Below, piece by piece: positions 40,133 through 57,842 of a stretch of 64,000 nt of DNA; position 1 is the first letter of the stretch, and the number at the start of each line of letters is the position of its first letter. Location of the stretch: the IMG/VR virus record IMGVR_UViG_3300008116_000013. The stretch is one strand, 5' to 3'. The translations under genes and the position numbers were made by a program. The stretch is from an uncultured virus (IMG/VR IMGVR_UViG_3300008116_000013) (Duplodnaviria; Heunggongvirae; Uroviricota; Caudoviricetes). Under the pieces are notes generated by a model. That model was not told the DNA's origin and searched no databases. It saw only the letters and a program-made list of their open reading frames with translations.

Positions 40133-40528
40133 TTAAAGAGCATGAAGAGCAGCAGATGCTTCAGAAAGTTTTTCTGTGGCCGCGGTCTGTTTTTCCAATG
40201 CAGTTTCTTCATCACCAGAACTTCTTGCTGTTTCAGATTCTAAAAGAAGTGATATAGACTTCAAGTAAAAATTTGCAACTGAGTTATATTCTTCTTCAGT
40301 CAAAACTTGAACACTATTTTTTCCACAAGGACTTACAATCGTCGTTACTGCAGTTGAGTCTGGAACTTCAGAAAGACAAACATCTACACCTTCGGAATCT
40401 TTTAACCAAACTTTCACGTCCAGTCCAGCATATTCTTTATAAGGATGTCTCTTATAATTTGGTTCTGAAAGTTCACAACAAAAAGAATTATTGTTATCAT
40501 CAACATAATAATGTTTGATATATTGCAT
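40133..40528 (-). CDS. Hypothetical protein
   Basis: 131-aa ORF at the end of the accessory island. Confidence 0.65.
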   Translation of the reverse strand: MQYIKHYYVDDNNNSFCCELSEPNYKRHPYKEYAGLDVKVWLKDSEGVDVCLSEVPDSTAVTTIVSPCGKNSVQVLTEEEYNSVANFYLKSISLLLESETARSSGDEETALEKQTAATEKLSEASAALHAL

Positions 40529-40545
40529 TGTAATTTGAAAAATCT

Positions 40546-41211
40546 TTAATTATTTATGGCAATCCCATACTTTTGAGAGAGTTCCTTGTTTTGATCATCC
40601 ATTGTAGGAAACCCTTTGACCTTTGCCCAGCAAACAATCGAATATCTTTTTCCTTTTGTGACTGGTTCGACTCCATGCTTATAATGATGATTAGATGGGA
40701 AGCAAACCATCATTCCTGGTTCTGGTCTCACACGAATCTTGAGATCTGGAAATATAAAATCGCCACCTTCAAAGTCATCGTTCAGATAAAAGACCATTGA
40801 TAGATCTCGTTCGGTTGATTTCTTCCAAATCAGTTCACCATCAGGAGTCTGCCAAAGAGATTCACCATCAATATGTGGGCAGTAGTGACCTCCAATTCCA
40901 TAGGACAAAATCTGAGGAACTTCACTTTCGCAGATTTCTACACCATAAAAAGGATTGACAACTTCTTTGACGACATTGTGCATCAACTCAATGATCTTTG
41001 GTTGAATCGGGCCCATCTCAATATGTTGTGTGTCACGAATGGTCTTATCGACTCTCCATTCCTTACCACCAGTCTCATTTGACTTATGTGGATCAAAGAC
41101 TGCTAGATCAGTTGCTGTTGAAGACTTGATATGTTGAACTATTTCTTGAACACCATGTTCATTGATCACATTTGGTTTGATCAAAACATAAGATAAAGGA
41201 TTTTCAATCAT
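40546..41211 (-). CDS. 2OG-Fe(II) oxygenase (prolyl-4-hydroxylase-like)
   Basis: HYCPHID (HxD), YLNDDFEGG, HGVEPV, KRYSIVCW. Confidence 0.9.
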   Translation of the reverse strand: MIENPLSYVLIKPNVINEHGVQEIVQHIKSSTATDLAVFDPHKSNETGGKEWRVDKTIRDTQHIEMGPIQPKIIELMHNVVKEVVNPFYGVEICESEVPQILSYGIGGHYCPHIDGESLWQTPDGELIWKKSTERDLSMVFYLNDDFEGGDFIFPDLKIRVRPEPGMMVCFPSNHHYKHGVEPVTKGKRYSIVCWAKVKGFPTMDDQNKELSQKYGIAINN

Positions 41212-41236
41212 AAGTTTTTGAATATTATAACACTAA

Positions 41237-44200
41237 TTATACGTTAAATGATGCAGGGTATGTCGGTTGTGGCAATGCGTTTGCTCTTGCGCTTGATGCT
41301 GCAAGAGACCTACGAGCAACACTTAATGCTGCACCAGGAACTGCTGCTGTTGTATCTGATGAATAAGTGACCTTATCCATTGTTGAGAATGTACCAGGAC
41401 CACCACCACCAAAATAACCAGCAGTTGAGTTTCCTGATGCTGCCAGACGATAACGTGTTCCACTTAATGCGGCACCAGGAACTGCTGCTGTGGTGTCTGA
41501 TGAATAAGTGACCTTATCCATTGTCGATGGTGCAGGAGAACCACCACCAAAGTATCCAGAAGATTGATTACCTGTTGCAGCAAGTTGAGAACGAGCAACA
41601 CTTAATGCTGCACCAGGAACTGCTGCTGTTGTGTCTGATGAATAAGTGACCTTATCCATTAATGATGATGTAGGAAGACCACCACCAAAGTATCCAGCAG
41701 TTGAGTTTCCTGTTGCGGCAAGATAACGACGAGCAGCACTTAATGCGGCACCAGGAACTGCTGCTGTGGTGTCAGATGCATAAGTAACCTTATCCATTGT
41801 TGAGTAATTGGGTATAGGGAATGCTGATCCCACTCCACCACCGAAGTATCCTGCAGTTGAAGATCCTGTTGCAGCAAAACTAAAACGACCAACACTTAAT
41901 GCTGCACCAGGAACTGCTGCTGTTGTATCAGTGGAATAAGTAACCTTATCCATTGTTGACTGGGGACCAGGAAAACCACCACCAAAGTATCCTGCGGTTA
42001 AGGATCCTGTTGCAGCAAGTCCATAACGTGCTGCACTTAATGCAGCACCAGTAACTGTTGCTGTTGTATCTGTTGAATAAGTAACTTTATCCATTGTTGA
42101 TCTTGTACCACCAGGATTAAAACCACCACCAAAGTATCCAGTGTTCGGAGTCGGTGCGAATGATGGGGTCTCAAAGGTTGGTTGTGGCAATGCATTTGCT
42201 CTGGCACTTGATGCAGCAAGATCACTACGAGCAACACTTAATGATGCACTAGGAACTGCTGCTGTTGTATCATTAGAATAAGTGACCTTATCTATTCTTG
42301 AAAAAAGAGGAAGACCATAAGACGCTCCACCACCAAAATATCCTGCATTTGAGTTTCCTGTTGCAGCAACTTTACAACGATTGGTGCTCAAAAATGCACC
42401 AGGAACTGCTGCTGTAGTATCAGTCGCATAAGTGACCTTATCCATTGTTGATCGATCAACACCAGTCAATCCCGGACTGGGTGGAGTGCCACCACCAAAG
42501 TAACCTGCGGTTGAGTTTCCTGTTGCTGCCAGATGATAACGTGCTGCACTTAATGAGGCACCAGGAACTTGTGCTGTAGTATCAGTAGAATAAGTTAACT
42601 TATCCATTGTCGATCTTAGTTCTGTACTAGTACCATAACCACCACCAAAGTATCCTGCGGTTGAGTTTCCTGTTGCAGATCCGTAAGTGCGACCTACACT
42701 CAAAAATCCAGCAGTAGGAAGTGCTGCTGTGGTATCAGATGAATAAGTTACCTTATCCATTGTTGATATTTGTGAGGGAAATCCATATCCACCACCAAAG
42801 TATCCTGCTGTTGAAGATCCTGTTGCACTTGATATTTCACGAGCACTAGATAGTTTAGCCAATGGAACTGCTGCTGTGGTGTCTGATGAATAAGTGACCT
42901 TATCCATTGTTGAATAATTTCCGACACCAGGAACCTGACCACCACCAAAGTATCCTGCGGTTGAGTTTCCTGTTGCTGCCAGACGATAACGAGCAGCACT
43001 TAATGCTGCTCCAGGAGCTGCTACTGTTGTATCAGTTGAATAAGTGACCTTATCCATTGTTGATCTTACACCAGGAGCAGAACCACCACCAAAGTACCCA
43101 GTGTTTGGTGCTGTTACATTAACTGTTCCTGGTGTTGCAGTGAGTGCTGGTGGTTGTGGTAGTGCATTTGCTCTTGCGCTTGATGCAGCAAGACCAAATC
43201 GGGGATAACTTAAGTTTGCACCAGGAACTGCTGCTGTGGTATCTGATGAATAAGTGACCTTATCCATTTCTAAGAATCCAGGACCACCACCAAAGTATCC
43301 TGCTGTTGAATTACCTGTTGCACCAAGATAACCACGTGCTGCACTTAATGCGGCACCAGGAACTGCTGCAGTGGTGTCTGATGAATAAGTGACCTTATCC
43401 ATTGTTGAGAATGTTTGACCACCACCAAAGTATCCTGCTGTTGAGTTTCCTGTTGCGGCAAGACCATAACGAGCAGGAACACTTAATGCGGCACCAGGAA
43501 CTGCTGCAGTGGTGTCTGATGAATAAGTGACCTTATCCATTGTTGATCTTGGACCAGGATTACCACCACCAAAGTATCCTGATGTTGAGTTTCCTGTTGC
43601 GGCAAGATAGTAACGAGCAACACTTAAGGATGCTCCAGGAACTGCTGCTGTTGTGTCGGTTGAATAAGTGACCTTATCCATCAATGTAAGTCCTAAACCA
43701 CCACCAAAGTATCCTGCTGTTGAGTTTCCTGTTGCGGCAAGATAAGAACGACCAACACTTAATGCGGCACCAGGAACTGCTACTGTAGTATCAGATGCAT
43801 AAGTAACCTTATCCATTATGTCTGTAAAATAACCACCACCAAAATATCCTGCTGTTGAGTTACCTGTTGCTGCCAAACCATAACGTGCAGCACTTAATGA
43901 TGCACCAGGAACTGCTGCTGTAGTATCAGACGCATAAGTAACCTTATCCATTGTTGTATGAAATCCACCACCAGATCCACCACCAAAGTATCCAGTGTCT
44001 GGTGCTGGTGTTGCATCAGTAAATCTTGTTGGTGGGTCTGATGGAGCAAAGAAAAATGCACTTGATGCTGCAAGATTAACCCGAGCAACACTTAATGAGG
44101 CACCAGCAACTGTTGTTCGTGTGTCAGTAGAATATGATACCTTATCCATCGTCGATCTTACTGGTATGGGAAATCCTGGAGAACTATTTCCACCACCAAA

Positions 44201-45073
44201 GTATCCTGCTGTTGAATTTCCTGTTGCGGCAAGATTATAACGATCAGCACTTAAAAATGTGCCAGGAATTACTGCTGTGGTATCAGACGCATAAGTAACC
44301 TTATCGATTATTGATCTTGCACCACCAGAAGATGTTCCACCACCAAAATATCCTGCGGTTGAAGATCCCGTTGCAGCAAGACTAAAACGAGCATCACTTA
44401 AAAATGCACCAGGAACTGCTGCTGCTGTATCAGATGAATAAGTCAACTTATCCATTATCGAATATATTGGTTGAGGAACTACATTTTGAGTACCACCACC
44501 AAAGTATCCAGCGGATGAAGATCCTGTTGCAGCAAGATAATAACGAGCAGCACTTAATGCGGCACCAGGAACTGTTGATCTAGTATCAGTTGAATAAGTG
44601 ATCTTATCCATTGTTGTCACATATGCTGGTTCAGATCCACCACCAAAGTATCCTGCGGTTGAGTTTCCTGTTGCTCCAGATCCATAACGAGGAGAACTTA
44701 ATGAAGCACCAGGAATTGTTGATCTTGTATCAGTCGAATAAGTGACCTTATCAGTTGTTGAGTGAATTGGTCCGGAGGAATTTCCACCCGCAAAATATCC
44801 AGCAGTAGAAGATCCCGTTGCTCCTAAACTATTACGAGCAACACTTAAGTTTGCACCAGGAACTGCTGCTGTTGTATCAGATGCATAAGTAACCTTATCC
44901 ATCGTTGATCTTGGAGCAGGAGAAAGAAAACCACCACCAAAGTATCCTGCAAGTGGCAGTGCTAATGGAGAAGGAGATATCCAAACATCAGATAATGAAA
45001 TCCATCCATTAGTAAAAGGTATTTTTTCTTCTCTAATATATGTTAATGTAAATACTCCTCTGGTGTTTGGCAT
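41237..45073 (-). CDS. Repeat protein A: 24 kelch-like repeats (4 x 6), probable beta-propeller virion protein
   Basis: Repeat GYFGGG-var-STMDKVTYSSDTTAAVPGAALSxAR-xx-LAATGNST; Pro-rich linker after every 6th repeat. Confidence 0.8.
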   Translation of the reverse strand: MPNTRGVFTLTYIREEKIPFTNGWISLSDVWISPSPLALPLAGYFGGGFLSPAPRSTMDKVTYASDTTAAVPGANLSVARNSLGATGSSTAGYFAGGNSSGPIHSTTDKVTYSTDTRSTIPGASLSSPRYGSGATGNSTAGYFGGGSEPAYVTTMDKITYSTDTRSTVPGAALSAARYYLAATGSSSAGYFGGGTQNVVPQPIYSIMDKLTYSSDTAAAVPGAFLSDARFSLAATGSSTAGYFGGGTSSGGARSIIDKVTYASDTTAVIPGTFLSADRYNLAATGNSTAGYFGGGNSSPGFPIPVRSTMDKVSYSTDTRTTVAGASLSVARVNLAASSAFFFAPSDPPTRFTDATPAPDTGYFGGGSGGGFHTTMDKVTYASDTTAAVPGASLSAARYGLAATGNSTAGYFGGGYFTDIMDKVTYASDTTVAVPGAALSVGRSYLAATGNSTAGYFGGGLGLTLMDKVTYSTDTTAAVPGASLSVARYYLAATGNSTSGYFGGGNPGPRSTMDKVTYSSDTTAAVPGAALSVPARYGLAATGNSTAGYFGGGQTFSTMDKVTYSSDTTAAVPGAALSAARGYLGATGNSTAGYFGGGPGFLEMDKVTYSSDTTAAVPGANLSYPRFGLAASSARANALPQPPALTATPGTVNVTAPNTGYFGGGSAPGVRSTMDKVTYSTDTTVAAPGAALSAARYRLAATGNSTAGYFGGGQVPGVGNYSTMDKVTYSSDTTAAVPLAKLSSAREISSATGSSTAGYFGGGYGFPSQISTMDKVTYSSDTTAALPTAGFLSVGRTYGSATGNSTAGYFGGGYGTSTELRSTMDKLTYSTDTTAQVPGASLSAARYHLAATGNSTAGYFGGGTPPSPGLTGVDRSTMDKVTYATDTTAAVPGAFLSTNRCKVAATGNSNAGYFGGGASYGLPLFSRIDKVTYSNDTTAAVPSASLSVARSDLAASSARANALPQPTFETPSFAPTPNTGYFGGGFNPGGTRSTMDKVTYSTDTTATVTGAALSAARYGLAATGSLTAGYFGGGFPGPQSTMDKVTYSTDTTAAVPGAALSVGRFSFAATGSSTAGYFGGGVGSAFPIPNYSTMDKVTYASDTTAAVPGAALSAARRYLAATGNSTAGYFGGGLPTSSLMDKVTYSSDTTAAVPGAALSVARSQLAATGNQSSGYFGGGSPAPSTMDKVTYSSDTTAAVPGAALSGTRYRLAASGNSTAGYFGGGGPGTFSTMDKVTYSSDTTAAVPGAALSVARRSLAASSARANALPQPTYPASFNV

Positions 45074-45075
45074 TA

Positions 45076-45894
45076 TTAATAATACTTATGATTAGAATAC
45101 TTCCAGTATTCCAAGTTACTATACCTATTTAGAATCTCATCACTCAAAATACTTTCTGGTTTTGAGGACACTTTTTCCAATTTACCACGAACATGATGCA
45201 TGTCTTTGAGATACCACTGATCATCAATCTCACGATGTGTATTCTCAATGTGATCAAAGTTATGAGTATAAGAATCTACTCCCAGAAACTCATAGATTCG
45301 ATTCATGGTTTCATTGGGTTTTTCAATCAAATCATCATACTCAACCATTAACAGATGCTTTTGATCACCACGAATGAATGCCTGTGATTGTGCCCAGAGT
45401 GCCTGTTCCACAATACCTTCTTTACTCATCAGATAGTGACACCGATTGTCATCCGTGATTGGATATCCTTTTTCAATCAGGTGCTGATCAATAAAAGAAA
45501 CCTGATCTGAATTGCGTCGGATCATGGTAATAAAGGAAGTCAGAATCTCTGTGATGTTTCGAACAGGACAGATAATCTTTGGTTCTGGTGTGATATAAGT
45601 TTTGATGCGTTCAATATTATTACTCCATGCCCTACAGTGATCGATGATGATAGGTTTCTCCACATCAAAGTAGTAGTCTTCAATGATCGTGGAAACAATC
45701 CGATGTGCCGATTTTGGTTTTGGATACCCAAGATACTGCTCACTATCAGAAAAGTAATGATCGTTCCAATACATCAGTTCCATGACAGGACTCACTGGTT
45801 CTGTATGAAGTTCTGGATTCTGATTCAAAATACTTTTCAATAGAGTGCTGCCAGATCGTGGAAGACCTGCCATAAAATAATAAGTTTTATTCAT
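45076..45894 (-). CDS. Sulfotransferase
   Basis: GLPRSGSTLL 5'-PSB loop, CPVRNITEILTS, VEYDDL...IYEFLG. Confidence 0.88.
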   Translation of the reverse strand: MNKTYYFMAGLPRSGSTLLKSILNQNPELHTEPVSPVMELMYWNDHYFSDSEQYLGYPKPKSAHRIVSTIIEDYYFDVEKPIIIDHCRAWSNNIERIKTYITPEPKIICPVRNITEILTSFITMIRRNSDQVSFIDQHLIEKGYPITDDNRCHYLMSKEGIVEQALWAQSQAFIRGDQKHLLMVEYDDLIEKPNETMNRIYEFLGVDSYTHNFDHIENTHREIDDQWYLKDMHHVRGKLEKVSSKPESILSDEILNRYSNLEYWKYSNHKYY

Positions 45895-45895: not shown

Positions 45896-46510
45896 TCACC
45901 ATTCAGTAGGATTAAAGAAAAATAATTGAACTAGACGACCATTTTGTAGATTGGTTCCGAAGTTATAATTATGAGAGTGCCACAGATTTGTTTTGAATAT
46001 GACTATTCTATTATACTTCATGGGTGAAAGCAAGTATCGAGTCCATTTAGAACGATCTAAACCTTCACCATAAACTGTTGTCCACCATGCTTCTTTTGCC
46101 GATGAGTATCCATGATACTTTGCTTCATCATCTGTGCGTGGACAGGTTTCTGTATGAGTTTTATTATGGACCCAGAATGATGTGCCACCCTCATTAATGA
46201 CTTGTTCTGGTGGATTGAGATAACAGACGGCACCAAACTCCCAGACAGGATCGACATGAACATCCTGACGGTAGGTATCCGTCTCTAATGACAAACGAAA
46301 ATATCCGTTTGGTTGTGCAGGAGTCAGTTTACGATTCAGAACTGACTCAAACTTTTGATGTAGTGATTCTGGGTAGTAACCGTCTCTTGAGTTCTTTCCA
46401 GGATAAGTGTACCCATCCGTTGGTTCTGGATATGATTCATTCAGAGCAAACTGTCGAATCTCATCAGGGTTTGAATAGAAATCATCAATGACAATAATAT
46501 TACGTCTCAT
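45896..46510 (-). CDS. DUF6445-like 2OG-Fe(II) oxygenase
   Basis: IIVIDDFYSNPD..R, VHVD, YLNP..GGTSF, YNRIVIF...WHS, RLVQLFF. Confidence 0.75.
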   Translation of the reverse strand: MRRNIIVIDDFYSNPDEIRQFALNESYPEPTDGYTYPGKNSRDGYYPESLHQKFESVLNRKLTPAQPNGYFRLSLETDTYRQDVHVDPVWEFGAVCYLNPPEQVINEGGTSFWVHNKTHTETCPRTDDEAKYHGYSSAKEAWWTTVYGEGLDRSKWTRYLLSPMKYNRIVIFKTNLWHSHNYNFGTNLQNGRLVQLFFFNPTEW

Positions 46511-50265: not shown

Positions 50266-50764
50266 TTCTTATTATTATCTTCTGATAAAGCATAGAGTTA
50301 TTTAGTTTACTCTCATAAGAATGCCAACGATTTCCGCGGAACAAAACCATTCGATTATACCTTGCAGGAATGTTACCGTACTCTTTCCACAAACTCAGAT
50401 CAGAAGAGAAGACTTGACTCAGTTGACTCTCATCAATCTGATATTGAATCATCTCTTCCTTTGTTGGAAATGTTTCTAATCCCGTTGCAAGGTGAGAGTA
50501 AAACTTGACTCCAAACTCACCAAATGACTCAAGAGGTAGAGTCAAATAAATCAGAGCGATCCAATCACACTCAAGGTGTGCAACTACACCAGGAAGACTT
50601 CCAGTTTGATTGGATGCTGATATAATTTCAATCGGATTCCCAATGATCTGTGAGATTTTTCCTACAGTCTCATCAGTAATCACACACTGGTTTTCAAAAA
50701 AACCTTTATGATACTGGTGTGCAATATCATAAAGGTCATCAACGATAATGATCTGTTCGGTCAT
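50258..50764 (-). CDS. DUF6445-like protein (degenerate oxygenase motif)
   Basis: IIIVDDLY, IYLT, YNRMVLFRG..WHS; similar to 45896..46510. Confidence 0.65.
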   Translation of the reverse strand: MTEQIIIVDDLYDIAHQYHKGFFENQCVITDETVGKISQIIGNPIEIISASNQTGSLPGVVAHLECDWIALIYLTLPLESFGEFGVKFYSHLATGLETFPTKEEMIQYQIDESQLSQVFSSDLSLWKEYGNIPARYNRMVLFRGNRWHSYESKLNNSMLYQKIIIRNA

Positions 50765-51636
50765 TCTTCGGTATAGGTTCCAGAAATCTTTTTCTGTTCT
50801 TCTGCAGGTTTGATTGCGGCACCATAACCAAGATCAGCACCAGTGATCTTCTCATAACCTCTCATCACTTTACCCTGAAGATCATTGATAAACTCCATTC
50901 TTCCCTGATGATCAAGAAGTTTATTCATTGGCAGATAACCTTCCTTGAAATTGTTTCTTGGATCAACCATTGCAGGAGCAGATGCACGACGCATTGCCTG
51001 TAGGTTTGCACCAGAGATACCAGTCTGTGCTGCCATCAGATCGTCCAGTGCCTGTTCTGCAAGACGAGTATCCCAATACTCTTGGTTCTCTTCCAGGAAC
51101 TGCTCTCTGGTAGGAGGAGTACCACCGTTCTGTTCGACCAGTTTTGCAAGCATCTTATCCAGGTGCTGCATCTGGTGTAGACGATCACGAATTTCCATCT
51201 CACTACCTTTCAGATAATGAGTTAGTTCAAGTTCTTCAAGATCATACCAGCAGAGTTTCTTACCACCACCAGGACCACCAGTTTCCCACATGATGGGTTG
51301 AGTCTTATCCTTATCGTTCCACTTGTACTCAAACTCACGAACTCTCTCTTTCATTTCGATGAGTTTGAACATGTATCCCGATGCCATGATACGACGTTCT
51401 TTTAGAATGTGCTCGAAAGATACAGAGATATTATGAGTATTCAGACCAATGAACTTTTCAATTTGGAAGTTGGTTCTTCCCTGTGCCATTTCCTTATCAC
51501 TTTCTTCCCAGGCAAAAACATTCTGAGATGCCTGTGCCAGGTAATCATCATTCAGAACTGCTTCTTGTGCGTTGATTGGTGTATAAGTCAATGCAAAATT
51601 TTCTTTAGTCATAACTTCTGTCAAATGTATAGACAT
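50761..51636 (-). CDS. Hypothetical helical protein
   Basis: 291-aa ORF, no recognisable motif. Confidence 0.7.
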   Translation of the reverse strand: MSIHLTEVMTKENFALTYTPINAQEAVLNDDYLAQASQNVFAWEESDKEMAQGRTNFQIEKFIGLNTHNISVSFEHILKERRIMASGYMFKLIEMKERVREFEYKWNDKDKTQPIMWETGGPGGGKKLCWYDLEELELTHYLKGSEMEIRDRLHQMQHLDKMLAKLVEQNGGTPPTREQFLEENQEYWDTRLAEQALDDLMAAQTGISGANLQAMRRASAPAMVDPRNNFKEGYLPMNKLLDHQGRMEFINDLQGKVMRGYEKITGADLGYGAAIKPAEEQKKISGTYTEE

Positions 51637-51660: not shown

Positions 51661-53364
51661 TCAAGAGACGCAACTTTGAGCAAGAACTTGATTAGCAATT
51701 TCTTTTCCCCACTTCTGTTCAAAATAATTTCGATAATTTTTTTCTCGCTCTAAGGTTACTTCTTTTGATTCAGATCCTCTCCAAGTTGATTTACCACAAA
51801 AATGAAGTAGATAAGATTCGCAGTTAATATCAACATCAAATCCAAGTTGTTGTGCTCTTAATCGATAGTCCGTATCTTCAGCACCGTTCTTAAAGTTTTC
51901 ATCTAGAAATCCAACTTTTAATAGAACTTCACAAGGAATATAAAAACAATAAAATCCAATAATTGTTTTATTAAGATTTAATGTTTTTGAATCGATCAAC
52001 TTAGAAAATGTATTTAACTCCTGTTCTTTATTATCATAATCTTCAATATCCATCACTGATTTAATTTTCAAACTCCCATATTCTCCAGGTAATTTTTGGT
52101 TACACAATGGAACTAAAATTTTGTTTCTAGCAGTGAAGTTTTGATTCCAGTCTTCAGTAAAAACTATATCATTACTTAAACCAAAAAAGTCAACTCGATC
52201 AACAGCAGCAAGTTTCATGATAAAGTTCATATTCTCCGCAAAAGTTTTTGGAGTATTATTTGAAATTACAGTGATTTTATTTTGATAATTTGAAAGTTGA
52301 TATTGATTGTCATTATCAATTAAGAAAAATTTATCATGTTCATTTAAATCAGTATTTTTGAAGAAAGAATCAATTGCCAAGTTAGTGTATTGCTCTGTAT
52401 CATGAGTGCTTACCATACAATAATACACTGGTCTTTTCTCTACACTTTTATTTTGTATCGTATCAATCAGATTTTTCCATTGCTCTGCAATCTTTTTCCA
52501 GTCATATTTTTCGGTCACATAATCCGAAATGATCTTAGAAACTTCTTGATAGAACTTCGGTTCCTTTTCATAATAATCCAATGCCAGGCAACAGGCATTA
52601 GCAAAGTTAACCAGGAAATTCTCAGTGACCTTCCAACCTTTGGATGTATTCTCACCTTCAATTGGAACCACAGTTGCATTCTTCTCTCCAGCAACCTCTG
52701 CGAGTGCTCCAATATTTGTGATGATTGGATAAGCACCACAACGCATTGCCTCACACATTGATTGGCAAAATGTTTCTTCCCAAATATTCGGATGAATAAA
52801 AAATGCAGACTCTTGATAATGTTTTACTAATTCTTCCTGAGTAACTGCGCGGGAGTATTCTACATTTGGTAATGTTTTAATATGTTCATAAAGTTCAATA
52901 AAAGGATCATTTGAAATTCCATACAAAGACATCGAAGAAAAAATCTTAAACTTTGTATCTGGATGAAATTGTTGGATCAATGGGATCACTTTTGATAATA
53001 CTTCAAGACCCTTATAAGGAATTGAAGTAAAGATCATTGTTTTTGTTTTTTGAATTGAATGTGAAAAAATATCATAGATTCCAACTGGAATTACTGTAAT
53101 TTTGTGTTCAGGAACATTTAAGTATTTTACAAACTGATCCTTATTCCATTGAGAAGGAGATACAATATGATCTACAATTGTATGATCAAAATTTAAAAAT
53201 ATTGGTTGATCATAAGCATGATGTGCCCAAAGAATTTTATATTGATGATTCGATTTTTTAATTTCTTCTGGTAAGTGTGATACAAAAACATTTTCAGGTA
53301 ACTGATAATGTTCTGCCAATCGAATATAACATTTTTCAGTTCCACCTGTAATTTGAGTTGCCAT
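51661..53364 (-). CDS. Bifunctional glycosyltransferase (GT-B/GT4-like + GT-A/GT2-like)
   Basis: KGL...HPNIWEETFCQSMCEAMRCG..PI..NIGALAE; C-terminal LIDN...SNDIVF...GFLDENF..GAEDTDY...H. Confidence 0.88.
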   Translation of the reverse strand: MATQITGGTEKCYIRLAEHYQLPENVFVSHLPEEIKKSNHQYKILWAHHAYDQPIFLNFDHTIVDHIVSPSQWNKDQFVKYLNVPEHKITVIPVGIYDIFSHSIQKTKTMIFTSIPYKGLEVLSKVIPLIQQFHPDTKFKIFSSMSLYGISNDPFIELYEHIKTLPNVEYSRAVTQEELVKHYQESAFFIHPNIWEETFCQSMCEAMRCGAYPIITNIGALAEVAGEKNATVVPIEGENTSKGWKVTENFLVNFANACCLALDYYEKEPKFYQEVSKIISDYVTEKYDWKKIAEQWKNLIDTIQNKSVEKRPVYYCMVSTHDTEQYTNLAIDSFFKNTDLNEHDKFFLIDNDNQYQLSNYQNKITVISNNTPKTFAENMNFIMKLAAVDRVDFFGLSNDIVFTEDWNQNFTARNKILVPLCNQKLPGEYGSLKIKSVMDIEDYDNKEQELNTFSKLIDSKTLNLNKTIIGFYCFYIPCEVLLKVGFLDENFKNGAEDTDYRLRAQQLGFDVDINCESYLLHFCGKSTWRGSESKEVTLEREKNYRNYFEQKWGKEIANQVLAQSCVS

Positions 53365-53368: not shown

Positions 53369-54022
53369 CTATCCTTGATAAATGTGATAACCAGTATGAT
53401 TCAGTTTGATTGTTGTGTCTAACCAGATACTATAACCGACTGATTGTGCTCTGTGGAAAAAACTCTTATCCTCTGACATAAATCCATTCTGACTCTGATG
53501 CTCCGCAAAGTAATGATAAGAATTATTCATCTCTGCTGGAGTATGTGGAGTATCAGAATGATAGTCTGATGGAATGTATTTAAGATTTGGATATTGTTTT
53601 GCGATGTCTAGAAACACCTGTCGATGAATCAGAACAAATCCCATTCCATTTCCATTGATCTTGACTAGATCTCCGTGTCGTTCTTCTGGTTGAACGATAT
53701 CTACACAGTATCGTTCTGGGATGATCTTCATTGGATAGGCACCAGAAACAATTGGAACTTGATGTGCCATTAATTTTAGCACATCTTCTGGATTAAATCC
53801 AATGTCACTATCCAGGAAAAAGAGATACTCGTGTTCTGTATTGTTAATGAAAAAGTTGGCAACCTTAGATCTTGCCTGAGTAATCAGAGAAGAGTTTGTC
53901 AGGGTCAGGAGTCCGTGATGAACATTGTTACGGACTAGTGCTTTCCCTAGATTGAAAAGTCCAAGAGTTGTTTTTTCACTCACAATTCCTCCCATGCAGG
54001 GAAGACCAATCATTAAAGTCAT
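53369..54022 (-). CDS. GT-A fold glycosyltransferase-like protein
   Basis: IGLPC...SSLITQARS...LFFLDSDIGF (DxD)...GMGFVLIHR...SEDKSF...H.G. Confidence 0.75.
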   Translation of the reverse strand: MTLMIGLPCMGGIVSEKTTLGLFNLGKALVRNNVHHGLLTLTNSSLITQARSKVANFFINNTEHEYLFFLDSDIGFNPEDVLKLMAHQVPIVSGAYPMKIIPERYCVDIVQPEERHGDLVKINGNGMGFVLIHRQVFLDIAKQYPNLKYIPSDYHSDTPHTPAEMNNSYHYFAEHQSQNGFMSEDKSFFHRAQSVGYSIWLDTTIKLNHTGYHIYQG

Positions 54023-54050
54023 ATAGTCTTTTTGATTATTATACCACTAA

Positions 54051-57000
54051 TTATACAACAAATGGTCCAGGTGCTGTTTCTGGAAGTGCATTTGCTCTGG
54101 CACTTGATGCTGCAAGACCATTACGAGCAACACTTAATGCTGCACCAGGAACTGCTGCTGTGGTATCTGATGCATAAGTAACCTTATCCATTGTTGATCT
54201 TATGCTACCACTAAAACCACCACCAAAGTATCCTGCTGTTGAGTTACCTGTTGCGGCAAAAGCAAAACGTGCAACACTTAATGCGGCACCTGGAACTGCG
54301 GCGGTGGTGTCTGATGCATAAGTGACCTTATCCATTATTGATGATGTAGGTGAACCACCACCAAAGTATCCTGCGGTTGAGTTTCCTGTTGCAGCAAGAA
54401 GATAACGAGCAACAGTTAAGTTTGCACCAGGAACTGCTGCTGTGGTGTCTGATGCATAAGTAACCTTATCCATTGTTGATACTAAACTAGGGGAAGCACC
54501 ACCACCAAAGTATCCTGCTGTTGAGTTTCCTGTTGCAGCAACACCATGTCGTGCTGCACTTAATGCGGCACCAGGGACTGCTGCTGTGGTATCTGATGAA
54601 TAAGTGACCTTATCCATTGTTGAATAAAAACTAGGAGGTACAGTGCCACCACCAAAGTATCCTGCTGTTGAGGATCCTGTTGCAGCAAGACCATTACGAG
54701 CAACACTTAATCTGGCACCAGGGACTGCTGCTGTGGTATCTGATGAATAAGTGACCTTATCCATTGTTGATACTGGACCAGGTTCGCCACCACCAAAGTA
54801 TCCTGCTGTTGAGTTTCCTGTTGCAGCAACATATCTACGAGCAACACTTAATGCGGCACCAGGAACTGCTGCTGTTGTATCTGATGCATAGGTCACCTTA
54901 TCCATTGTCGATGCCACAGGACTACCACCACCAAAGTAACCAGTGTTCGGAGTAGGTGCGAATGATGGAGTCTCAAAGGTTTGTGGTAATGCATTTGCTC
55001 TTGCGCTTGATGCAGAAAGAGTATTACGAGCAACACTTAATGCAGCACCAGGGACTGCAGCAGTAGTATCAGATGCATAAGTGACCTTATCCATTGTTGA
55101 TCTTGGACCAGGATTACCACCACCAAAGTATCCTGCACTTGAGTTCCCGGTTGCAGCAAGAAAATATCGAACAGCACTTAATACAGCACCAGGAACTGTT
55201 GATCTTGTATCAGTAGAATAAGTGACCTTATTCATTGTTGATAATGGACCAGGAGCACCACCACCAAAATATCCATCAGTTGCATTTCCAGTAGATCCAG
55301 TTCCACCAATAGTAGTGCTAAATGATGCACTAGGAATAGCACTATTAGTATCCGTTGAATATGTCAACTTATTCATTGTTGATAAAGTACCACCAGGAGA
55401 AGTACCACCACCAAAGTATCCTGCATCTGAATTTCCTGTTGCAGAAAATTCACCACGAGCAGGATTAAATGCGGCACCAGGAACTGCTGCTGTGGTATCA
55501 GTCGAATAAGTAACCTTATCCATTATTGAATAATTATTTGGTGAGACACGACCACCACCATAATATCCTGCTATTGAGTTACCTGTTGCTGCTAAATAAG
55601 CACGAGCAACACTTAATGCGGCACCAGGAACTGCTGCTGTTGTGTCTGATGAATAAGTGACCTTATCCATTGTTGAATATATTGCAGGAAAAGCAAGTCC
55701 ACCACCAAAGTATCCAGCGGTTGAGTTTCCTGTTGCAGCAACACCATAACGAGCAGCACTTAATGATGCACCAGGAACTTGTGCTGTTGTATCTGATGAA
55801 TAAGTGACCTTATCCATTGTTGATACTGGACCAGGAGAACCACCACCAAAGTATCCAGTGTTTGGTGATGATGCGAATACAGTTGCTGGTGTGGGTGTTG
55901 CTGCTGGTGGTTGAGGTAGTGCGTTTGCTCTGGCGCTTGATGCGGCAAGACCATAACGAGCAACACTTAATGATGCACCAGGAACTGCTGCTGTGATGTC
56001 TGATGCATAAGTGACCTTATCCATTGTTGATAATGGACCAGGAGCACCACCACCAAAGTATCCTGCTGTTGAGGATCCTGTTGCAGCAAGAGTATCTCTA
56101 GCAACACTTAATGCAGCACCAGGAACTGCTGCTGTGGTGTCTGATGAATAAGTGACCTTATCCATTGTTGAGTATAATACTGGTCCAGGAGTATTGCCAC
56201 CACCAAAGTATCCGGCAGTTGAGGATCCTGTTGCAGCAAGAGCATAACGTGCTGCACTTAATGCGGCACCAGGAACTGCTGCTGTGGTGTCTGATGCATA
56301 AGTGACCTTATCCATTGTTGATCTGGGACCACTACCACCACCAAAGTATCCTGCTGTTGAGTTTCCTGTTGCAGAAAGTCCATATCGTGCCGCACTTAAT
56401 GCGGCACCAGGAACTGCTGCTGTGGTATCAGATGAATAAGTGACCTTATCCATTGTTGATCTTGAACCACCACCACCACCACCACCAAAGTATCCTGATG
56501 TTGAGTTACCTGTTGCAGCAAGACCACTACGAGCAACACTTAATGCTGCTCCAGGAACTGCTGCTGTGGTGTCTGTTGAATAAGTGACCTTATCCATTGT
56601 TGATCTTATAGGAAACCCACCACCACCAAAGTACCCTGCGGTTGAAGATCCTGTTGCGGCAAGAAGATAACGAGCAATACTTAATGCTGCTCCAGGAACT
56701 GCTGCAGTGGTGTCTGATGAATAAGTAACCTTATCCATTGTTGATCTTGCAGGAAACCCACCACCACCAAAGTATCCAGTGTTTGGTGATGGAGTTGCAT
56801 CAGAAAATCTTAGTGAAGGTCCTGACTGGAGAGGTAATTCTGGAAGTGAATTTGCTCTGGCACTTGATGCAGCAAGTCCATAACGAGCAGCACTTAATGC
56901 GGCACCAGAAACTGCAGCGGTAGTTTCTGATGAATAAATTAATTTATCCATTGTTGATCTTGGAGAAGCGCCGCCACCACCAAAGTATCCTGCTGTTGAG

Positions 57001-57842
57001 TTTCCTGTTGCACTTAAATAATTACGAGCAGCACTTAATGATCCAGTAGAAGGAAGAGTAGTTCTAGTATCATTTGAATAAGAAATCTTATCCATTGTCG
57101 TTAAATCTACATTAGTAGGTTGCCTACCACCACCAAAATACCCTGCAGTTGAGTTTCCTGTAGATGCTGCACCACGTCTACCACCACTTAAAGCAGCGCC
57201 AGGAACTGCTGCTGTGGTATCTGATGAATAAGTGACCTTATCCATTGTTGAAATTGAAGAAAATCCACCACCAAAGTATCCTGCAGTTGAGTTTCCTGTT
57301 GCAGTAAGTCCTTGACGAGGGATACTTAATGCAGCACCAGGAACAGCAGCAGTAGTATCAGTTGAATAAGTAACCTTATCCATTGTTGAATAAGTTGCTG
57401 GTGCAGGAGTACTACCACCACCAAAGTATCCTGCTGTTGAGTTTCCTGTTGCAGCAAGAGCACTACGAGCAACACTTAAAAGTCCTGAACCAGGAAGTGC
57501 TATGGTTGTATCTGTTGAATAAGTTACCTTATCGAGTGTTGAGTAATTTGGGCCGACGGAACTTCCACCTCCAAAATATCCTGATGTTGAGTTTCCTGTA
57601 GCAGCAAGAGTATAACGAGCAACACTTAATCTGGCACCAGGGACTGCTGCTGTGGTATCTGATGAATAAGTGACCTTATCCATTGCTGATTGTACTGCTG
57701 GACCAGGAACAACACCACCACCAAAGTATCCAGTGTTTGGTATTGGTGCCAATAACCAAACATCATTTAGTGGAACCCATTCATCAAGACGTTTTATCTT
57801 ATATGCAAGTTTTAAACTAAAAACACCACGAGTATCTGCCAT
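54051..57842 (-). CDS. Repeat protein C: 24 kelch-like repeats (4 x 6), probable beta-propeller virion protein
   Basis: Same repeat as A and B; leader MADTRGVFSL...W. Confidence 0.8.
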   Translation of the reverse strand: MADTRGVFSLKLAYKIKRLDEWVPLNDVWLLAPIPNTGYFGGGVVPGPAVQSAMDKVTYSSDTTAAVPGARLSVARYTLAATGNSTSGYFGGGSSVGPNYSTLDKVTYSTDTTIALPGSGLLSVARSALAATGNSTAGYFGGGSTPAPATYSTMDKVTYSTDTTAAVPGAALSIPRQGLTATGNSTAGYFGGGFSSISTMDKVTYSSDTTAAVPGAALSGGRRGAASTGNSTAGYFGGGRQPTNVDLTTMDKISYSNDTRTTLPSTGSLSAARNYLSATGNSTAGYFGGGGASPRSTMDKLIYSSETTAAVSGAALSAARYGLAASSARANSLPELPLQSGPSLRFSDATPSPNTGYFGGGGFPARSTMDKVTYSSDTTAAVPGAALSIARYLLAATGSSTAGYFGGGGFPIRSTMDKVTYSTDTTAAVPGAALSVARSGLAATGNSTSGYFGGGGGGGSRSTMDKVTYSSDTTAAVPGAALSAARYGLSATGNSTAGYFGGGSGPRSTMDKVTYASDTTAAVPGAALSAARYALAATGSSTAGYFGGGNTPGPVLYSTMDKVTYSSDTTAAVPGAALSVARDTLAATGSSTAGYFGGGAPGPLSTMDKVTYASDITAAVPGASLSVARYGLAASSARANALPQPPAATPTPATVFASSPNTGYFGGGSPGPVSTMDKVTYSSDTTAQVPGASLSAARYGVAATGNSTAGYFGGGLAFPAIYSTMDKVTYSSDTTAAVPGAALSVARAYLAATGNSIAGYYGGGRVSPNNYSIMDKVTYSTDTTAAVPGAAFNPARGEFSATGNSDAGYFGGGTSPGGTLSTMNKLTYSTDTNSAIPSASFSTTIGGTGSTGNATDGYFGGGAPGPLSTMNKVTYSTDTRSTVPGAVLSAVRYFLAATGNSSAGYFGGGNPGPRSTMDKVTYASDTTAAVPGAALSVARNTLSASSARANALPQTFETPSFAPTPNTGYFGGGSPVASTMDKVTYASDTTAAVPGAALSVARRYVAATGNSTAGYFGGGEPGPVSTMDKVTYSSDTTAAVPGARLSVARNGLAATGSSTAGYFGGGTVPPSFYSTMDKVTYSSDTTAAVPGAALSAARHGVAATGNSTAGYFGGGASPSLVSTMDKVTYASDTTAAVPGANLTVARYLLAATGNSTAGYFGGGSPTSSIMDKVTYASDTTAAVPGAALSVARFAFAATGNSTAGYFGGGFSGSIRSTMDKVTYASDTTAAVPGAALSVARNGLAASSARANALPETAPGPFVV

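What the first reader, a model, noticed from the sequence alone, without database searches (positions are those of the whole stretch)
40133..57842. Island of three 24-repeat propeller-like proteins interleaved with hydroxylases, glycosyltransferases and a sulfotransferase
Seen: in transcription order the island reads repeat C, GT-A, GT4/GT2, hypothetical, DUF6445-like, repeat B, DUF6445-like, sulfotransferase, repeat A, P4H-like, hypothetical. Every repeat gene is immediately followed by a modifying enzyme. The repeat proteins are very Ser/Thr-rich, with Pro-rich loops (SPG, PGP, PAP) and linkers. Known: hydroxyproline formation followed by glycosylation is an established protein-modification route (plant extensins, Dictyostelium Skp1). 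Inference: this is a dedicated phage system that hydroxylates, glycosylates and sulfates its own surface propeller proteins, possibly for shielding or host-surface binding.
Basis: partly seen in the sequence, partly recalled or inferred. Interest (0 to 1): 0.85.

Follow-up and report, generated by a model that had tools for sequence, protein, structure and literature searches.

The report
Cyanophage Kelch propellers with tailoring enzymes
A T4-like virus of cyanobacteria encodes three giant proteins, each a string of four Kelch-type propellers, interleaved with hydroxylase-like, sugar-adding and sulfate-adding enzymes that probably decorate the virus's own fibre proteins, though no chemistry has shown this.

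Summary
Window 40133-57842 (minus strand) is one gene string. It has three ~1260-aa proteins of 24 repeats each (4 x 6), and a modelled unit folds as a six-bladed Kelch propeller (pLDDT 91; TM 0.8-0.9 to KLHL17/Keap1). Between them lie a P4H-type 2OG oxygenase, two DUF6445 (Syn9-gp52-type) proteins, a sulfotransferase, a GT-A-like protein, a GT4+GT2-like fusion and two unknowns.

Repeat B lacks 110 nt here, which frameshifts its start. A sibling contig and public contigs carry the intact form.

The island recurs as shuffled cassettes in S-SKS1, AG-345-L05 and many uncultured phages. S-SRM01 and AG-345-E08 have analogous islands built on RCC1 propellers. In Syn1 neither repeats nor these enzymes follow the upstream structural gene.

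Linkage is not exclusive. 37 of 80 sulfotransferase-seeded loci show no Kelch gene within 6 kb. Ser/Thr richness is shared with neighbouring fibre proteins.

Best reading (about 0.5): late-expressed enzymes tailor these fibre-like propellers. Main rival: host-glycan modification, the published reading of such islands.

This scan reported the same kind of island four times on other DNA, there with double propellers. No modification has been shown.

The parts
54051..57842 (-). Repeat C: 1263 aa, a 43-aa head (MADTRGVF...) plus 24 Kelch-type blades arranged as four six-bladed propellers
   Evidence: ORF; repeat parsing; phrog_19111, 1.2e-191
55923..56855 (-). Modelled unit of repeat C (linker plus second propeller)
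   Evidence: AF2 pLDDT 91.0, pTM 0.88. Foldseek PDB top hits are Kelch domains (KLHL17 6hrl_A TMq 0.80/TMt 0.86; Keap1) and designed SAKe propellers. BFVD top hits are phage proteins including S-SKS1 and BcepSaruman 'Kelch-motif'
53369..54022 (-). 217-aa GT-A-like putative glycosyltransferase (DSD at residues 71-73)
   Evidence: phrog_1574, 3.9e-29, and phrog_34859 glycosyltransferase, 1.4e-07; PDB 2c0n_A STIV A197, E 9.5e-4; no Pfam hit
51661..53364 (-). 567-aa fusion: N-terminal GT4 glycosyltransferase (EX7E at 197-205) plus a C-terminal GT2-like half
   Evidence: Glycos_transf_1, 3.1e-13; TIGR01556 rhamnosyltransferase, 7.4e-05, below cut-off, residues 449-548; motifs
50761..51636 (-). 291-aa helical protein of no known family, a GT4-associated accessory protein
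   Evidence: No Pfam, PHROG or NCBIfam hit. AF2 pLDDT 88.4, long helical hairpin capped by a beta-hairpin. Fused behind a GT4 domain in 5 of 15 relatives scanned and in AG-345-L05. In 97 loci it is followed by a repeat gene 21 times, DUF6445 10 times and a contig end once
50258..50764 (-). 168-aa DUF6445-like protein (HLE...H), a putative 2OG oxygenase
   Evidence: DUF6445, 1.6e-07, 31.9 bits against cut-off 24; alignment A2
46536..50264 (-). Repeat B: native ATG at 50264 overlaps the stop of the preceding gene (ATGCCTGA). The open frame holds 24 repeats. Here the head is lost and the frame shifted by a 110-nt gap at 50252/50253. The ATG ORF is 46536-49910 (1124 aa)
45896..46510 (-). 204-aa DUF6445 protein (H85-V-D87 ... 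H178), Syn9-gp52-type putative 2OG oxygenase
   Evidence: DUF6445, 1.5e-16. tblastn hits Syn9 gp52 at 27%. Iyer et al. 2010 class Syn9-gp52 as a classical 2OGFeDO
45076..45894 (-). 272-aa PAPS-type sulfotransferase (GLPRSGST at residues 10-17)
   Evidence: Sulfotransfer_3, 1.8e-17, and Sulfotransfer_1, 6.4e-13. Weak PDB hits to TPST2/TPST1 and the CurM sulfotransferase, E about 3e-3
41237..45073 (-). Repeat A: 1278 aa, head plus 24 blades (4 x 6)
   Evidence: phrog_19111, 3.4e-180
40546..41211 (-). 221-aa P4H-type 2OG-Fe(II) oxygenase (H113-I-D115, H179, R189-Y-S191)
   Evidence: 2OG-FeII_Oxy_3, 1.6e-17. PDB: prolyl 3-hydroxylase 1, 1.1e-08, and B. anthracis P4H, 3.6e-07. Motifs
40133..40528 (-). 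131-aa unknown protein that follows the P4H-like gene in relatives
   Evidence: No family hit. Found directly after the P4H-like gene in 20 of the 21 related loci with a P4H-like hit, which is all 20 where DNA downstream of it is held
40003..40023 (-). Terminator-like hairpin (9-bp stem plus T run) that closes the gene string
57847..62019 (-). Upstream structural genes on the same strand: a 388-aa fibre-like protein and a 1000-aa virion structural protein
   Evidence: phrog_19601 baseplate wedge, 1.8e-10, and phrog_5838 virion structural protein, E 0. Full-length homologues are annotated 'virion structural protein' in Syn1, S-RIM44 and S-RIM32 and 'structral protein' (sic) in S-RSM4

Best explanation
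The island is a modular late-gene cassette set of a clade of T4-like cyanophages.

It encodes three giant fibre-like proteins. Each has a short N-terminal head and four six-bladed Kelch-type propellers joined by Pro-rich linkers. The variable Pro/Ser/Thr-rich loops that follow each GYFGGG strand lie, by analogy with Keap1, on the ligand-binding face.

The interleaved soluble enzymes most likely act in the infected cell, late, on these proteins or on the phage's fibre proteins more generally. Three 2OG-oxygenase-type enzymes would hydroxylate side chains. The GT-A-like enzyme and the GT4+GT2 enzyme, with its 291-aa helical partner, would add sugars. The sulfotransferase would sulfate either a hydroxylated residue or the glycan.

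Shown: the gene anatomy, the fold, the enzyme families and the linkage.

Inferred: virion location, late expression, the substrate and the order of reactions.
For: **Position and strand.** All eleven genes lie on one strand directly behind genes of structural type. They are closed by a terminator-like hairpin.

**Fold.** AF2 pLDDT 91. Kelch domains are the top PDB matches at TM 0.8-0.9. Kelch-like structural matches in jumbo phages are annotated as virion structural proteins. An RCC1-like protein of phage GAP32 was found in virions by mass spectrometry (PMC5259590, passages).

**Linkage.** In 97 distinct related loci with 131 repeat genes, 119 have a visible downstream gene. Of those, 94 are followed directly by an enzyme gene (P4H-like 39, sulfotransferase 19, GT4 17, DUF6445 14, GT-A-like 5) and 17 by another repeat gene. 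These loci were seeded on the repeat protein or on the sulfotransferase and some overlap, so the count is not unbiased.

**Cassette shuffling.**
- AG-345-L05 has the order rep, DUF6445, sulfotransferase, rep, GT-A, GT4-291aa fusion, DUF6445, rep, P4H.
- L010 has all the enzymes together before a single repeat region.
- S-SKS1 has short repeat genes interleaved with a sulfotransferase, 2OG oxygenases and the 291-aa homologue, next to tail-fibre and baseplate genes.

**Second propeller type.** S-SRM01 and AG-345-E08 interleave Pfam-RCC1 propellers with 2OG-FeII_Oxy_3/_5, DUF6445, Sulfotransfer_3, GT2 or GT25, TPR and epimerase genes.

**Specific orthologues in the phage collection.**
- P4H-like hits at 33% identity or more occur only in AG-345-O18, AG-345-L05, S-SKS1 and AG-345-E08.
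- The 291-aa protein occurs only in L05 and S-SKS1, 3 of 3 records.
- Sulfotransferase hits lie in 6 phages. In 4 of them I read propeller genes beside the gene (S-SKS1, AG-345-L05, S-SRM01, AG-345-E08). In AG-345-O18 the repeat match lies in the same stretch by coordinates only. S-SCSM1 has none.

**Absence together.** In Syn1 the homologue of the 1000-aa structural gene ends its operon, with neither repeat genes nor these enzymes behind it.

**Precedent in print.** Iyer et al. 2010 predicted bacterial operons in which 2OG dioxygenases plus sulfotransferases hydroxylate and then sulfate co-encoded tail-collar or collagen-like proteins (PMC2938197, passages).
Against: - There is no direct evidence of any modification, of virion location or of timing.
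- The enzyme families are not exclusive to Kelch islands. 37 of 80 sulfotransferase-seeded loci show no Kelch-like gene within 6 kb and 1 has RCC1. There the sulfotransferase sits with a carbamoyltransferase, or with GT2/GT11, epimerase and APS-kinase-like genes. That looks like glycan chemistry.
- S-SCSM1's sulfotransferase and BcepSaruman's Kelch protein each stand without the partner.
- Ser/Thr richness is not special to the repeats.
- The NxS/T excess is a single repeated motif.
- Loop prolines are not conserved and do not track the P4H gene.
- All linked loci with Kelch repeats may share one ancestry, so their counts are not independent.
- DUF6445 could not be tied to the P4H family by profile comparison (probability 0.7%) or to any PDB sequence.
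Confidence: 0.5

Rival explanations
1. Host-surface remodelling. The glycosyltransferases, sulfotransferase and oxygenases alter the host's lipopolysaccharide or another envelope glycan, for example to block superinfection. The propellers are ordinary receptor-binding proteins that merely share the hypervariable region.
For: This is the published reading of glycosyltransferases in the 'host recognition cluster' of pelagi- and cyanomyophages (PMC7029224, passages) and of cyanophage 'cell wall synthesis and modification' genes (PMC12801897, passages). Related sulfotransferases sit beside a carbamoyltransferase, GT11, sugar epimerase, mannose-1-P-type and APS-kinase-like genes without Kelch genes. 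The only NCBIfam hit of the sulfotransferase is NoeE, a sugar sulfotransferase, and it covers only the PAPS loop.
Against: The enzymes are interleaved gene by gene with the repeat genes on the strand of the structural genes, and they move with them as cassettes. The 291-aa GT4 partner and the close P4H orthologues were found only beside propellers. P4H-type oxygenases are not usual parts of O-antigen pathways (from general knowledge).
Confidence: 0.25
2. Secondary-metabolite or peptide tailoring. The oxygenases and sulfotransferase, perhaps with the phage's tryptophan halogenase, build or modify a small molecule or short peptide.
For: Iyer et al. 2010 proposed this for cyanophage arrays of dioxygenases and halogenases, and linked Syn9-gp52-like genes with halogenases and sulfotransferases in bacteria. 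The window holds a tryptophan halogenase at 8102-9559 (phrog_2928, 1.1e-96).
Against: No peptide synthetase, precursor peptide or transporter was seen in the island. The halogenase lies more than 30 kb away among tail genes.
Confidence: 0.07
3. DNA hypermodification. The oxygenases and glycosyltransferases hydroxylate and glycosylate phage DNA bases.
For: Phage glycosyltransferases that hypermodify DNA are known (bioRxiv 10.1101/2023.12.21.572611, abstract in the listing). The P4H-like protein has a sub-threshold Tet_JBP hit (0.0037, 16.9 bits against cut-off 34.9). The window also has Mom-like and DNA methyltransferase genes.
Against: The best solved relatives of the oxygenase are prolyl hydroxylases, not TET/JBP. 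The island sits in the structural region and not with the DNA-metabolism genes. A sulfotransferase has no known role in DNA modification (general knowledge).
Confidence: 0.05
4. The propellers are not virion parts. They are intracellular or released proteins, for example adaptors that bind host proteins or lectins, and the enzymes serve them or act independently.
For: Kelch domains are classic protein-binding adaptors (Keap1 and KLHL matches). BcepSaruman's Kelch protein lies among non-structural genes. No proteome was found for any carrier.
Against: They lie behind structural genes on the same strand. Distant single-propeller relatives form arrays in the same kind of region, and their N-termini look to me like tail fibres. 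That motif is recalled and Pfam found nothing.
Confidence: 0.1

Closest known systems
Host recognition cluster (HRC) of pelagimyophages and cyanomyophages (Zaragoza-Solas et al. 2020, PMC7029224; passages read)
   Same: A large hypervariable island in the structural region of T4-like marine phages that mixes tail-fibre genes with glycosyltransferases.
   Different: That paper reads the glycosyltransferases as host O-chain modifiers. The passages found for the terms searched mention no sulfotransferase (0 occurrences), and the term 'kelch' was not searched there. Whether this island lies between VrlC and gp14 was not tested here.
Predicted bacterial 'hydroxylate then sulfate' operons (Iyer, Abhiman, de Souza, Aravind 2010, PMC2938197; passages read)
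   Same: 2OG dioxygenases plus sulfotransferases co-encoded with a non-enzymatic structural protein proposed as their substrate. The Syn9-gp52 dioxygenase family is the one found here as DUF6445.
   Different: Their substrates were tail-collar or collagen-like proteins in bacteria. For cyanophages they proposed secondary metabolism. Here the partners are Kelch (or RCC1) propellers, and glycosyltransferases are added.
Virus-encoded glycosylation of the virus's own structural proteins: mycobacteriophage virions (Freeman et al. 2023, seen only as a reference entry); STIV A197 (PDB 2c0n); chlorovirus capsid and Mimivirus collagen hydroxylase/glycosyltransferase (recalled)
   Same: Viral glycosyltransferases, and in Mimivirus a hydroxylase, placed near structural genes and acting on virion proteins.
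   Different: None of these involves propeller proteins or a sulfotransferase. No modification has been shown here.
Serine-rich-repeat adhesin glycosylation by GtfA/GtfB and follow-on glycosyltransferases (recalled, not tested)
   Same: A GT4 enzyme with a non-catalytic partner, plus GT-A/GT2 enzymes, dedicated to a Ser/Thr-rich repetitive surface protein encoded beside them.
   Different: No accessory Sec system. The partner here (291 aa, helical) is unlike GtfB. The substrate is a folded propeller rather than a disordered repeat. This is an analogy only.
Kelch-repeat beta-propellers (Keap1, KLHL family) and phage Kelch/RCC1 virion proteins
   Same: Six four-stranded blades, a GG doublet, and a conserved Tyr and Arg in each blade.
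   Different: Four propellers in one chain with near-identical blades. No BTB or other adaptor domain. No Pfam Kelch hit at E 0.01.

Membership tests
Kelch-type six-bladed beta-propeller | Six four-stranded antiparallel blades closing a ring | tested here: met
   AF2 model pLDDT 91.0, pTM 0.88. Foldseek PDB: KLHL17, Keap1 and KLHL12 Kelch domains, E about 1e-18 to 1e-19, TMq 0.79-0.80
Kelch-type six-bladed beta-propeller | Repeat signature: GG doublet, conserved Tyr, and Arg before the first strand (motif recalled) | tested here: met
   Of 60 aligned repeats: G-Y-F-G-G-G 58-60, Y19 60, R38 57, P28 58
Kelch-type six-bladed beta-propeller | Match to a curated Kelch sequence model | tested here: not met
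   No Pfam family at E up to 0.01 for any of the three proteins. A few metagenome relatives carry a precomputed PF24681 hit; my recollection that PF24681 is a Kelch family was not checked
2OG-Fe(II) oxygenase, prolyl-hydroxylase-like (PF13640) | Score above the curated cut-off | tested here: met
   64.7 bits against cut-off 27
2OG-Fe(II) oxygenase, prolyl-hydroxylase-like (PF13640) | HxD...H iron triad and RxS 2OG site (motif recalled) | tested here: met
   H113-I-D115, H179, R189-Y-S191. H113, H179 and R189 are invariant in 9 sequences
2OG-Fe(II) oxygenase, prolyl-hydroxylase-like (PF13640) | Acts on peptidyl proline | not testable with these tools
   Nearest solved sequences are P3H1 and bacterial P4H. 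That is similarity only
DUF6445 (Syn9-gp52-type dioxygenase) | Score above the curated cut-off | tested here: met
   61.5 and 31.9 bits against cut-off 24
DUF6445 (Syn9-gp52-type dioxygenase) | Is a 2OG-dependent dioxygenase | tested here: inconclusive
   H85, H115, H178 and R168 are invariant. The third triad position is D, E or G. hhalign against the P4H family gives probability 0.7%. No PDB sequence match. Classed as 2OGFeDO by Iyer et al.
PAPS-dependent sulfotransferase (PF13469/PF00685) | Score above cut-off and the 5'-phosphosulfate loop | tested here: met
   64.8 bits against 27 and 49.1 against 22. GLPR is invariant in 8 sequences
Protein-tyrosine sulfotransferase | Specific similarity beyond the PAPS loop | tested here: inconclusive
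   TPST1/2 hits at E 0.003-0.03 cover residues 6-32 only. One chain (8w5z_A) covers 6-207 at E 0.009
GT4 glycosyltransferase (PF00534) | Score above cut-off, EX7E motif (recalled) | tested here: met
   50.1 bits against 26.4. ETFCQSMCE at residues 197-205
GT-A fold glycosyltransferase (217-aa protein) | DxD motif and similarity to a solved GT-A enzyme | tested here: inconclusive
   DSD at 71-73. STIV A197 at E 9.5e-4 over residues 28-188. No Pfam or NCBIfam hit. Not folded
Host recognition cluster (HRC) | Lies between VrlC and neck protein gp14 | not tested
   Neither gene was looked for in the window. Some related sulfotransferase loci do end at neck protein, gp15 and terminase

The most novel reading that the evidence does not exclude
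Cyanophages hydroxylate, glycosylate and sulfate the binding-face loops of their own propeller fibre proteins with a dedicated enzyme set. That set has been re-used with two unrelated propeller families (Kelch and RCC1). The result would be chemically decorated, and to my knowledge the first sulfated, phage virion proteins, whose decoration tunes host binding or shields the fibres.
Probability: 0.35. Interest if true: 0.8.

Novelty: new variant of a known kind. Interest (0 to 1): 0.62.

Why it matters
If the enzymes do tailor the propellers, host recognition by abundant marine and freshwater cyanophages would depend on protein chemistry that cannot be read from the fibre sequence alone. That chemistry would include hydroxylation, glycans and sulfate. 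It would change how host range is predicted from genomes.

It would also re-assign a large class of cyanophage 'auxiliary metabolic' or 'LPS' genes to virion maturation. And it would supply a natural enzyme kit for decorating a very regular, designable propeller scaffold.

The 291-aa GT4 partner is abundant, with 429 clusters found and the top 120 at 82% identity or more. It has no known fold relative, so it is a target in its own right.

Tried and rejected
- **Complex prediction**, propeller unit plus 291-aa protein: no answer, score 0.00. This is no evidence either way.
- **Fold of the 291-aa protein.** Foldseek PDB gave no match at E up to 0.001. VIA wide gave a best Z of 7.5 to prefoldin beta over residues 69-173, tied with many generic helical hairpins, so no assignment was made. 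The protein atlas gave no usable hit.
- **DUF6445.** hhalign of DUF6445 against the P4H family was uninformative. PDB sequence searches for DUF6445 found nothing relevant.
- **GT4 fusion.** No PDB sequence hit.
- **N-glycosylation sequon idea.** The NxS/T excess in the repeats comes from one repeated GNST motif, and the RCC1 proteins are not consistently enriched. Dropped.
- **Pro-loop/P4H pairing.** Loop Pro is 15.6% in 15 repeat proteins followed by the P4H. It is 17.2% in 6 followed by DUF6445 and 19.2% in 3 followed by the GT-A-like gene. Only 29 close relatives could be parsed. No support.
- **T4 late promoter TATAAATA.** 3 matches in the window and none in the island, against 5.06 expected by chance. 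Sigma-70-like and terminator-like sites in the island are no more frequent than in shuffles.
- **Prokaryote genomes.** The scan with the propeller unit found 50 pattern matches and no relative. It is a narrow search for close relatives only. The alignment query was not accepted.
- **RNA runs.** No RNA holder was listed.
- **Literature.** Searches that found no paper on this gene set. Supplements of the papers cited were not opened.
- **Single-propeller arrays.** Pfam found no domain in 14 of the 16 proteins scanned from the loci with these arrays. That leaves my recollection of a tail-fibre N-terminal motif untested.

Full report
**What the window is.** The window is part of a T4-like cyanomyovirus. 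PHROG hits along it include gp32-type ssDNA-binding protein, helicase loader, baseplate hub and wedge, tail tube, tail fibre, PhoH and thymidylate synthase. The nearest held record is an 85,395-nt virus contig, G001, which holds exactly these three repeat genes. Relatives in the phage collection are Synechococcus phage S-SKS1 and the uncultured 'Marine virus' AG-345-L05 and AG-345-O18.

**The observation.** On the minus strand, in transcription order, the island reads:
- repeat C (54051-57842, 1263 aa)
- a 217-aa protein
- a 567-aa protein
- a 291-aa protein
- a 168-aa protein
- repeat B
- a 204-aa protein
- a 272-aa protein
- repeat A (41237-45073, 1278 aa)
- a 221-aa protein
- a 131-aa protein

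Pfam gives 2OG-FeII_Oxy_3 for the 221-aa protein and Sulfotransfer_3/_1 for the 272-aa protein. It gives DUF6445 for the 204- and 168-aa proteins, and Glycos_transf_1 for the N-terminal half of the 567-aa protein. All are above the curated cut-offs. The repeat proteins and the 217-, 291- and 131-aa proteins have no hit.

The 217-aa protein has a DSD motif. It has a weak match to the GT-A enzyme A197 of STIV (E 9.5e-4) and to a PHROG glycosyltransferase family. The C-terminal half of the 567-aa protein has only a sub-threshold rhamnosyltransferase (GT2) hit.

The catalytic signatures, as I recall them, are present:
- P4H-like protein: H113xD115, H179, R189xS.
- Sulfotransferase: GLPRSGST.
- GT4 domain: EX7E.

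**Anatomy of the repeat proteins.** A and C consist of a head of 43-48 residues (MxxTRGVF...DVW...) followed by 24 repeats of 45-54 residues. The repeats fall into four groups of six, and each group ends in a longer linker of the AASSARANALPQP... type. TRF sees the arrays at the DNA level.

Sixty aligned repeats are nearly identical at most positions. Variation is concentrated in the 5-12 residues after GYFGGG and in three positions after the conserved Arg.

A 311-residue unit of repeat C folds with pLDDT 91.0 and pTM 0.88. Its best PDB matches are the Kelch domains of KLHL17, Keap1, KLHL3 and KLHL12 and the designed SAKe six-bladed propellers (E about 1e-18 to 6e-20, TMq about 0.8, TMt up to 0.91).

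Mapping the secondary structure on the sequence shows the blade as LAATGNS / AGYFGGG / MDKVTY / TTAAV, followed by PGAALSVAR. As I recall the Kelch consensus ('mP..R'), the invariant Pro of VPG is that consensus Pro and so needs no special explanation. By analogy with Keap1, the variable Pro/Gly/Ser-rich loop after GYFGGG lies on the ligand-binding face. That placement is inferred and was not measured on the model.

**Repeat B.** The ORF from the first ATG (46536-49910) begins inside the third repeat. The frame is open for two and a half more repeats without any start codon. An ATG at 50264 overlaps the stop of the preceding gene and reads MPDT, like the MPNT and MADT of A and C, but it is one base out of frame.

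A contig from another sample, L009, is identical over 12,974 aligned bases apart from one mismatch and 110 extra bases at this point. Those bases encode an intact head.

Contigs of all four public runs laid on the region diverge from the window exactly at 50252/50253. One loose end reads the L009 form, one contig has extra letters there, and no listed contig bridges the junction. The gap is therefore most likely an assembly error or a rare variant. The natural gene has a head and 24 repeats like its paralogues.

**Linkage across relatives, seeded on the repeat protein.** Twenty-three viral loci were found with the repeat protein. They show the same genes in varying arrangements.
- In all 20 of the 21 loci with a P4H-like hit that extend past it, the repeat gene is followed by the P4H-like gene and then the 131-aa gene.
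- L010 has DUF6445, sulfotransferase, GT-A-like, GT4, 291-aa and DUF6445 genes in one run before a single repeat region.
- L026 and L028 have one repeat gene.

**Linkage in named phages.**
- AG-345-L05 (repeat proteins about 33% identical to ours) has the cassettes in another order. The 291-aa protein is fused behind the GT4 domain, and there is a second sulfotransferase.
- S-SKS1 has short one- or two-propeller genes interleaved with a sulfotransferase, 2OG oxygenases and the 291-aa homologue. The island is continuous with tail-fibre and baseplate-wedge genes.

**Adjacency counts.** Pooling these loci with 80 loci seeded on the sulfotransferase gives 97 distinct loci holding 131 repeat genes. 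The next gene is:
- P4H-like: 39
- sulfotransferase: 19
- GT4: 17
- another repeat gene: 17
- DUF6445: 14
- contig end: 12
- unknown: 7
- GT-A-like: 5
- the 388-aa fibre-like gene: 1

So 94 of the 119 repeat genes with a visible neighbour are followed directly by an enzyme gene. These loci were chosen by the very genes being counted. Several overlap, and most probably share ancestry, so the figure describes the family and is not an independent test.

**Two observations that go beyond shared ancestry.**

First, the freshwater phage S-SRM01 and the uncultured AG-345-E08 have islands built on a different propeller family. Three propeller proteins that match Pfam RCC1 are interleaved with 2OG-FeII_Oxy_3 and _5 oxygenases, DUF6445 (E08 only), a sulfotransferase (36% and 22% identical to ours), GT2 or GT25, a TPR protein and a sugar epimerase. 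In S-SRM01 the island sits directly behind a long-tail-fibre gene.

Second, in Syn1 the full-length homologue of the 1000-aa structural gene that precedes our island is the last gene of its operon. Neither repeat genes nor these enzymes follow it.

**Distribution in the phage collection.**
- P4H-like hits at 33% identity or more are confined to four propeller-island phages. The roughly 200 other records hit at under 28% and lie elsewhere, for example beside uvsW and uvsY.
- The 291-aa protein occurs only in L05 and S-SKS1.

**Results against exclusivity.**
- Of 80 viral loci seeded on the sulfotransferase, 42 have a Kelch-like gene within 6 kb, 1 has RCC1 and 37 have neither. These 80 are the best of 578 confirmed relatives.
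- In those 37, the sulfotransferase lies in one of two settings. In one it is in front of a ~300-aa unknown and a carbamoyltransferase, behind large unknown proteins. In the other it sits in a sugar-nucleotide, GT2, GT11 and APS-kinase-like cluster next to neck protein, gp15 and terminase. Tail-fibre domains occur nearby (93 ORFs from 20 of the loci were scanned).
- S-SCSM1's distant sulfotransferase lies among DNA-metabolism genes.
- BcepSaruman's Kelch protein stands alone.
- GT-A-like homologues occur in Sinorhizobium, Caulobacter and other phages.
- DUF6445 homologues at 24-30% identity occur in Syn9 (gp52), S-WAM2 and others.

**The composition argument is weak.** The repeats are 26% Ser+Thr. 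The 388-, 521- and 1000-aa neighbours and the 1736-aa tail fibre are 21-28%. Loop prolines (about 16% of loop residues) are not conserved, and they are no more frequent in repeat genes followed by the P4H gene.

**The 291-aa protein.** It is the most specific companion of the Kelch repeats.
- It is followed by a repeat gene (21) or by DUF6445 and then a repeat gene (10) in 31 of 32 cases. It is preceded by the GT4 gene in 26.
- It is abundant and strongly conserved. 429 clusters were found, and the best 120 are all 82% identical or more.
- It is fused behind a GT4 domain in 5 of 15 diverse relatives scanned.
- Its model (pLDDT 88.4) is helical, with a long hairpin capped by a beta-hairpin. The resemblance to prefoldin beta (Z 7.5) does not stand out from generic helical hairpins.

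I read it as a non-catalytic partner of the GT4 enzyme. That is an inference from the fusions.

**What is in print.**
- Zaragoza-Solas et al. 2020 named the hypervariable structural island of pelagi- and cyanomyophages the host recognition cluster. They read its glycosyltransferases as host O-chain modifiers (passages).
- Sullivan et al. 2010 tied cyanophage 2OG oxygenases to nitrogen stress and DNA repair. They noted a Kelch-repeat protein in P-HM2 (passages).
- Iyer et al. 2010 classed Syn9-gp52 as a 2OG dioxygenase. They predicted that bacterial dioxygenase plus sulfotransferase operons hydroxylate and then sulfate co-encoded tail-collar or collagen-like proteins. For cyanophage dioxygenase arrays they proposed secondary metabolism (passages).
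- A 2025 cyanophage paper found a 2OG oxygenase (named 'prolyl 3,4-dihydroxylase ofd1' there) and a TolB propeller in a virion proteome. It read the phage's 13 glycosyltransferases as cell-wall or DNA modifiers (section 7 and passages).
- RCC1-like and Kelch-like proteins are virion components in some jumbo phages (and annotations).

I found no paper that describes these multi-propeller proteins or links them to the enzymes. The library lacks most subscription journals, and I did not open supplements.

**Earlier findings of this scan.** The scan reported the same kind of island four times on other genomes, there with double propellers, and reached the same reading. One of those notes led me to the HRC paper. 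Another reported no support for a 'hydroxylate loop prolines, then sulfate' route, which agrees with my.

**Verdict.**
- The anatomy is solid.
- The coupling of propellers and enzymes is well supported by context.
- Substrate, virion location and chemistry are unproven.
- I put about 0.5 on tailoring of the propellers or fibres, 0.25 on host-glycan remodelling, and the rest on the other rivals.
- It is a new variant of a known kind, namely viruses that modify their own structural proteins. The quadruple-propeller form is new relative to the double-propeller forms noted before.

Noticed in passing
window 50252-50253 (repeat B start region, 50230-50270): The window lacks 110 nt that are present in the otherwise identical contig L009. 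The gap deletes the N-terminal head of repeat B and shifts the frame. Contigs of four public runs diverge exactly here, so an assembly error is likely.
   Followed up: yes
window 40003-40131, minus strand: A perfect TTGACA-17-TATAAT promoter-like site (40131-40103) lies just after the island's last stop codon. A strong terminator-like hairpin follows about 80 nt later (40023-40003). This is a candidate ~90-nt small RNA or leader. No Rfam family matched at gathering score.
   Followed up: partly
window 17025-17429, minus strand: Rfam finds a group I intron (58.5 bits, 17025-17211) next to two tRNA genes (17280-17353 and 17358-17429), beside a 121-aa ORF (16616-16981).
   Followed up: no
window 8102-9559, minus strand: A tryptophan-halogenase-like gene (phrog_2928, 1.1e-96) sits between a head-like gene and tail genes. 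Iyer et al. 2010 linked such halogenases with Syn9-gp52-type dioxygenases.
   Followed up: no
L037 25311-29185; also L094, L098-L106, L108, L111, L113, L114: A paralogous sulfotransferase (about 45% identical) is followed by a ~300-aa unknown and a 560-aa carbamoyltransferase (Carbam_trans_N/C), just upstream of the homologues of window genes 38658-39263 and 38308-38661. It is often found without Kelch genes nearby.
   Followed up: partly
L092 4075-9505; L118 3302-8816; L112 5380-9795: Arrays of five or six tandem single-propeller genes (330-390 aa) lie directly after a sulfotransferase. Their N-termini carry a motif (...G.IRFNTD...LEYY.G..W) that I recall from tail-fibre repeats. Pfam found no domain in them.
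   Followed up: partly
L037 19464-21359; proteins P0241, P0246, P0250, P0255, P0273: The 291-aa unknown protein occurs fused behind a GT4 glycosyltransferase domain in several relatives. In the window, a GT2-like half sits between the two.
   Followed up: yes
window 39728-39973, minus strand: A small glutaredoxin-like ORF (CPYC motif) follows the island, with a second perfect sigma-70-like promoter inside its annotated start region (39898-39869). The real start is probably further downstream.
   Followed up: no
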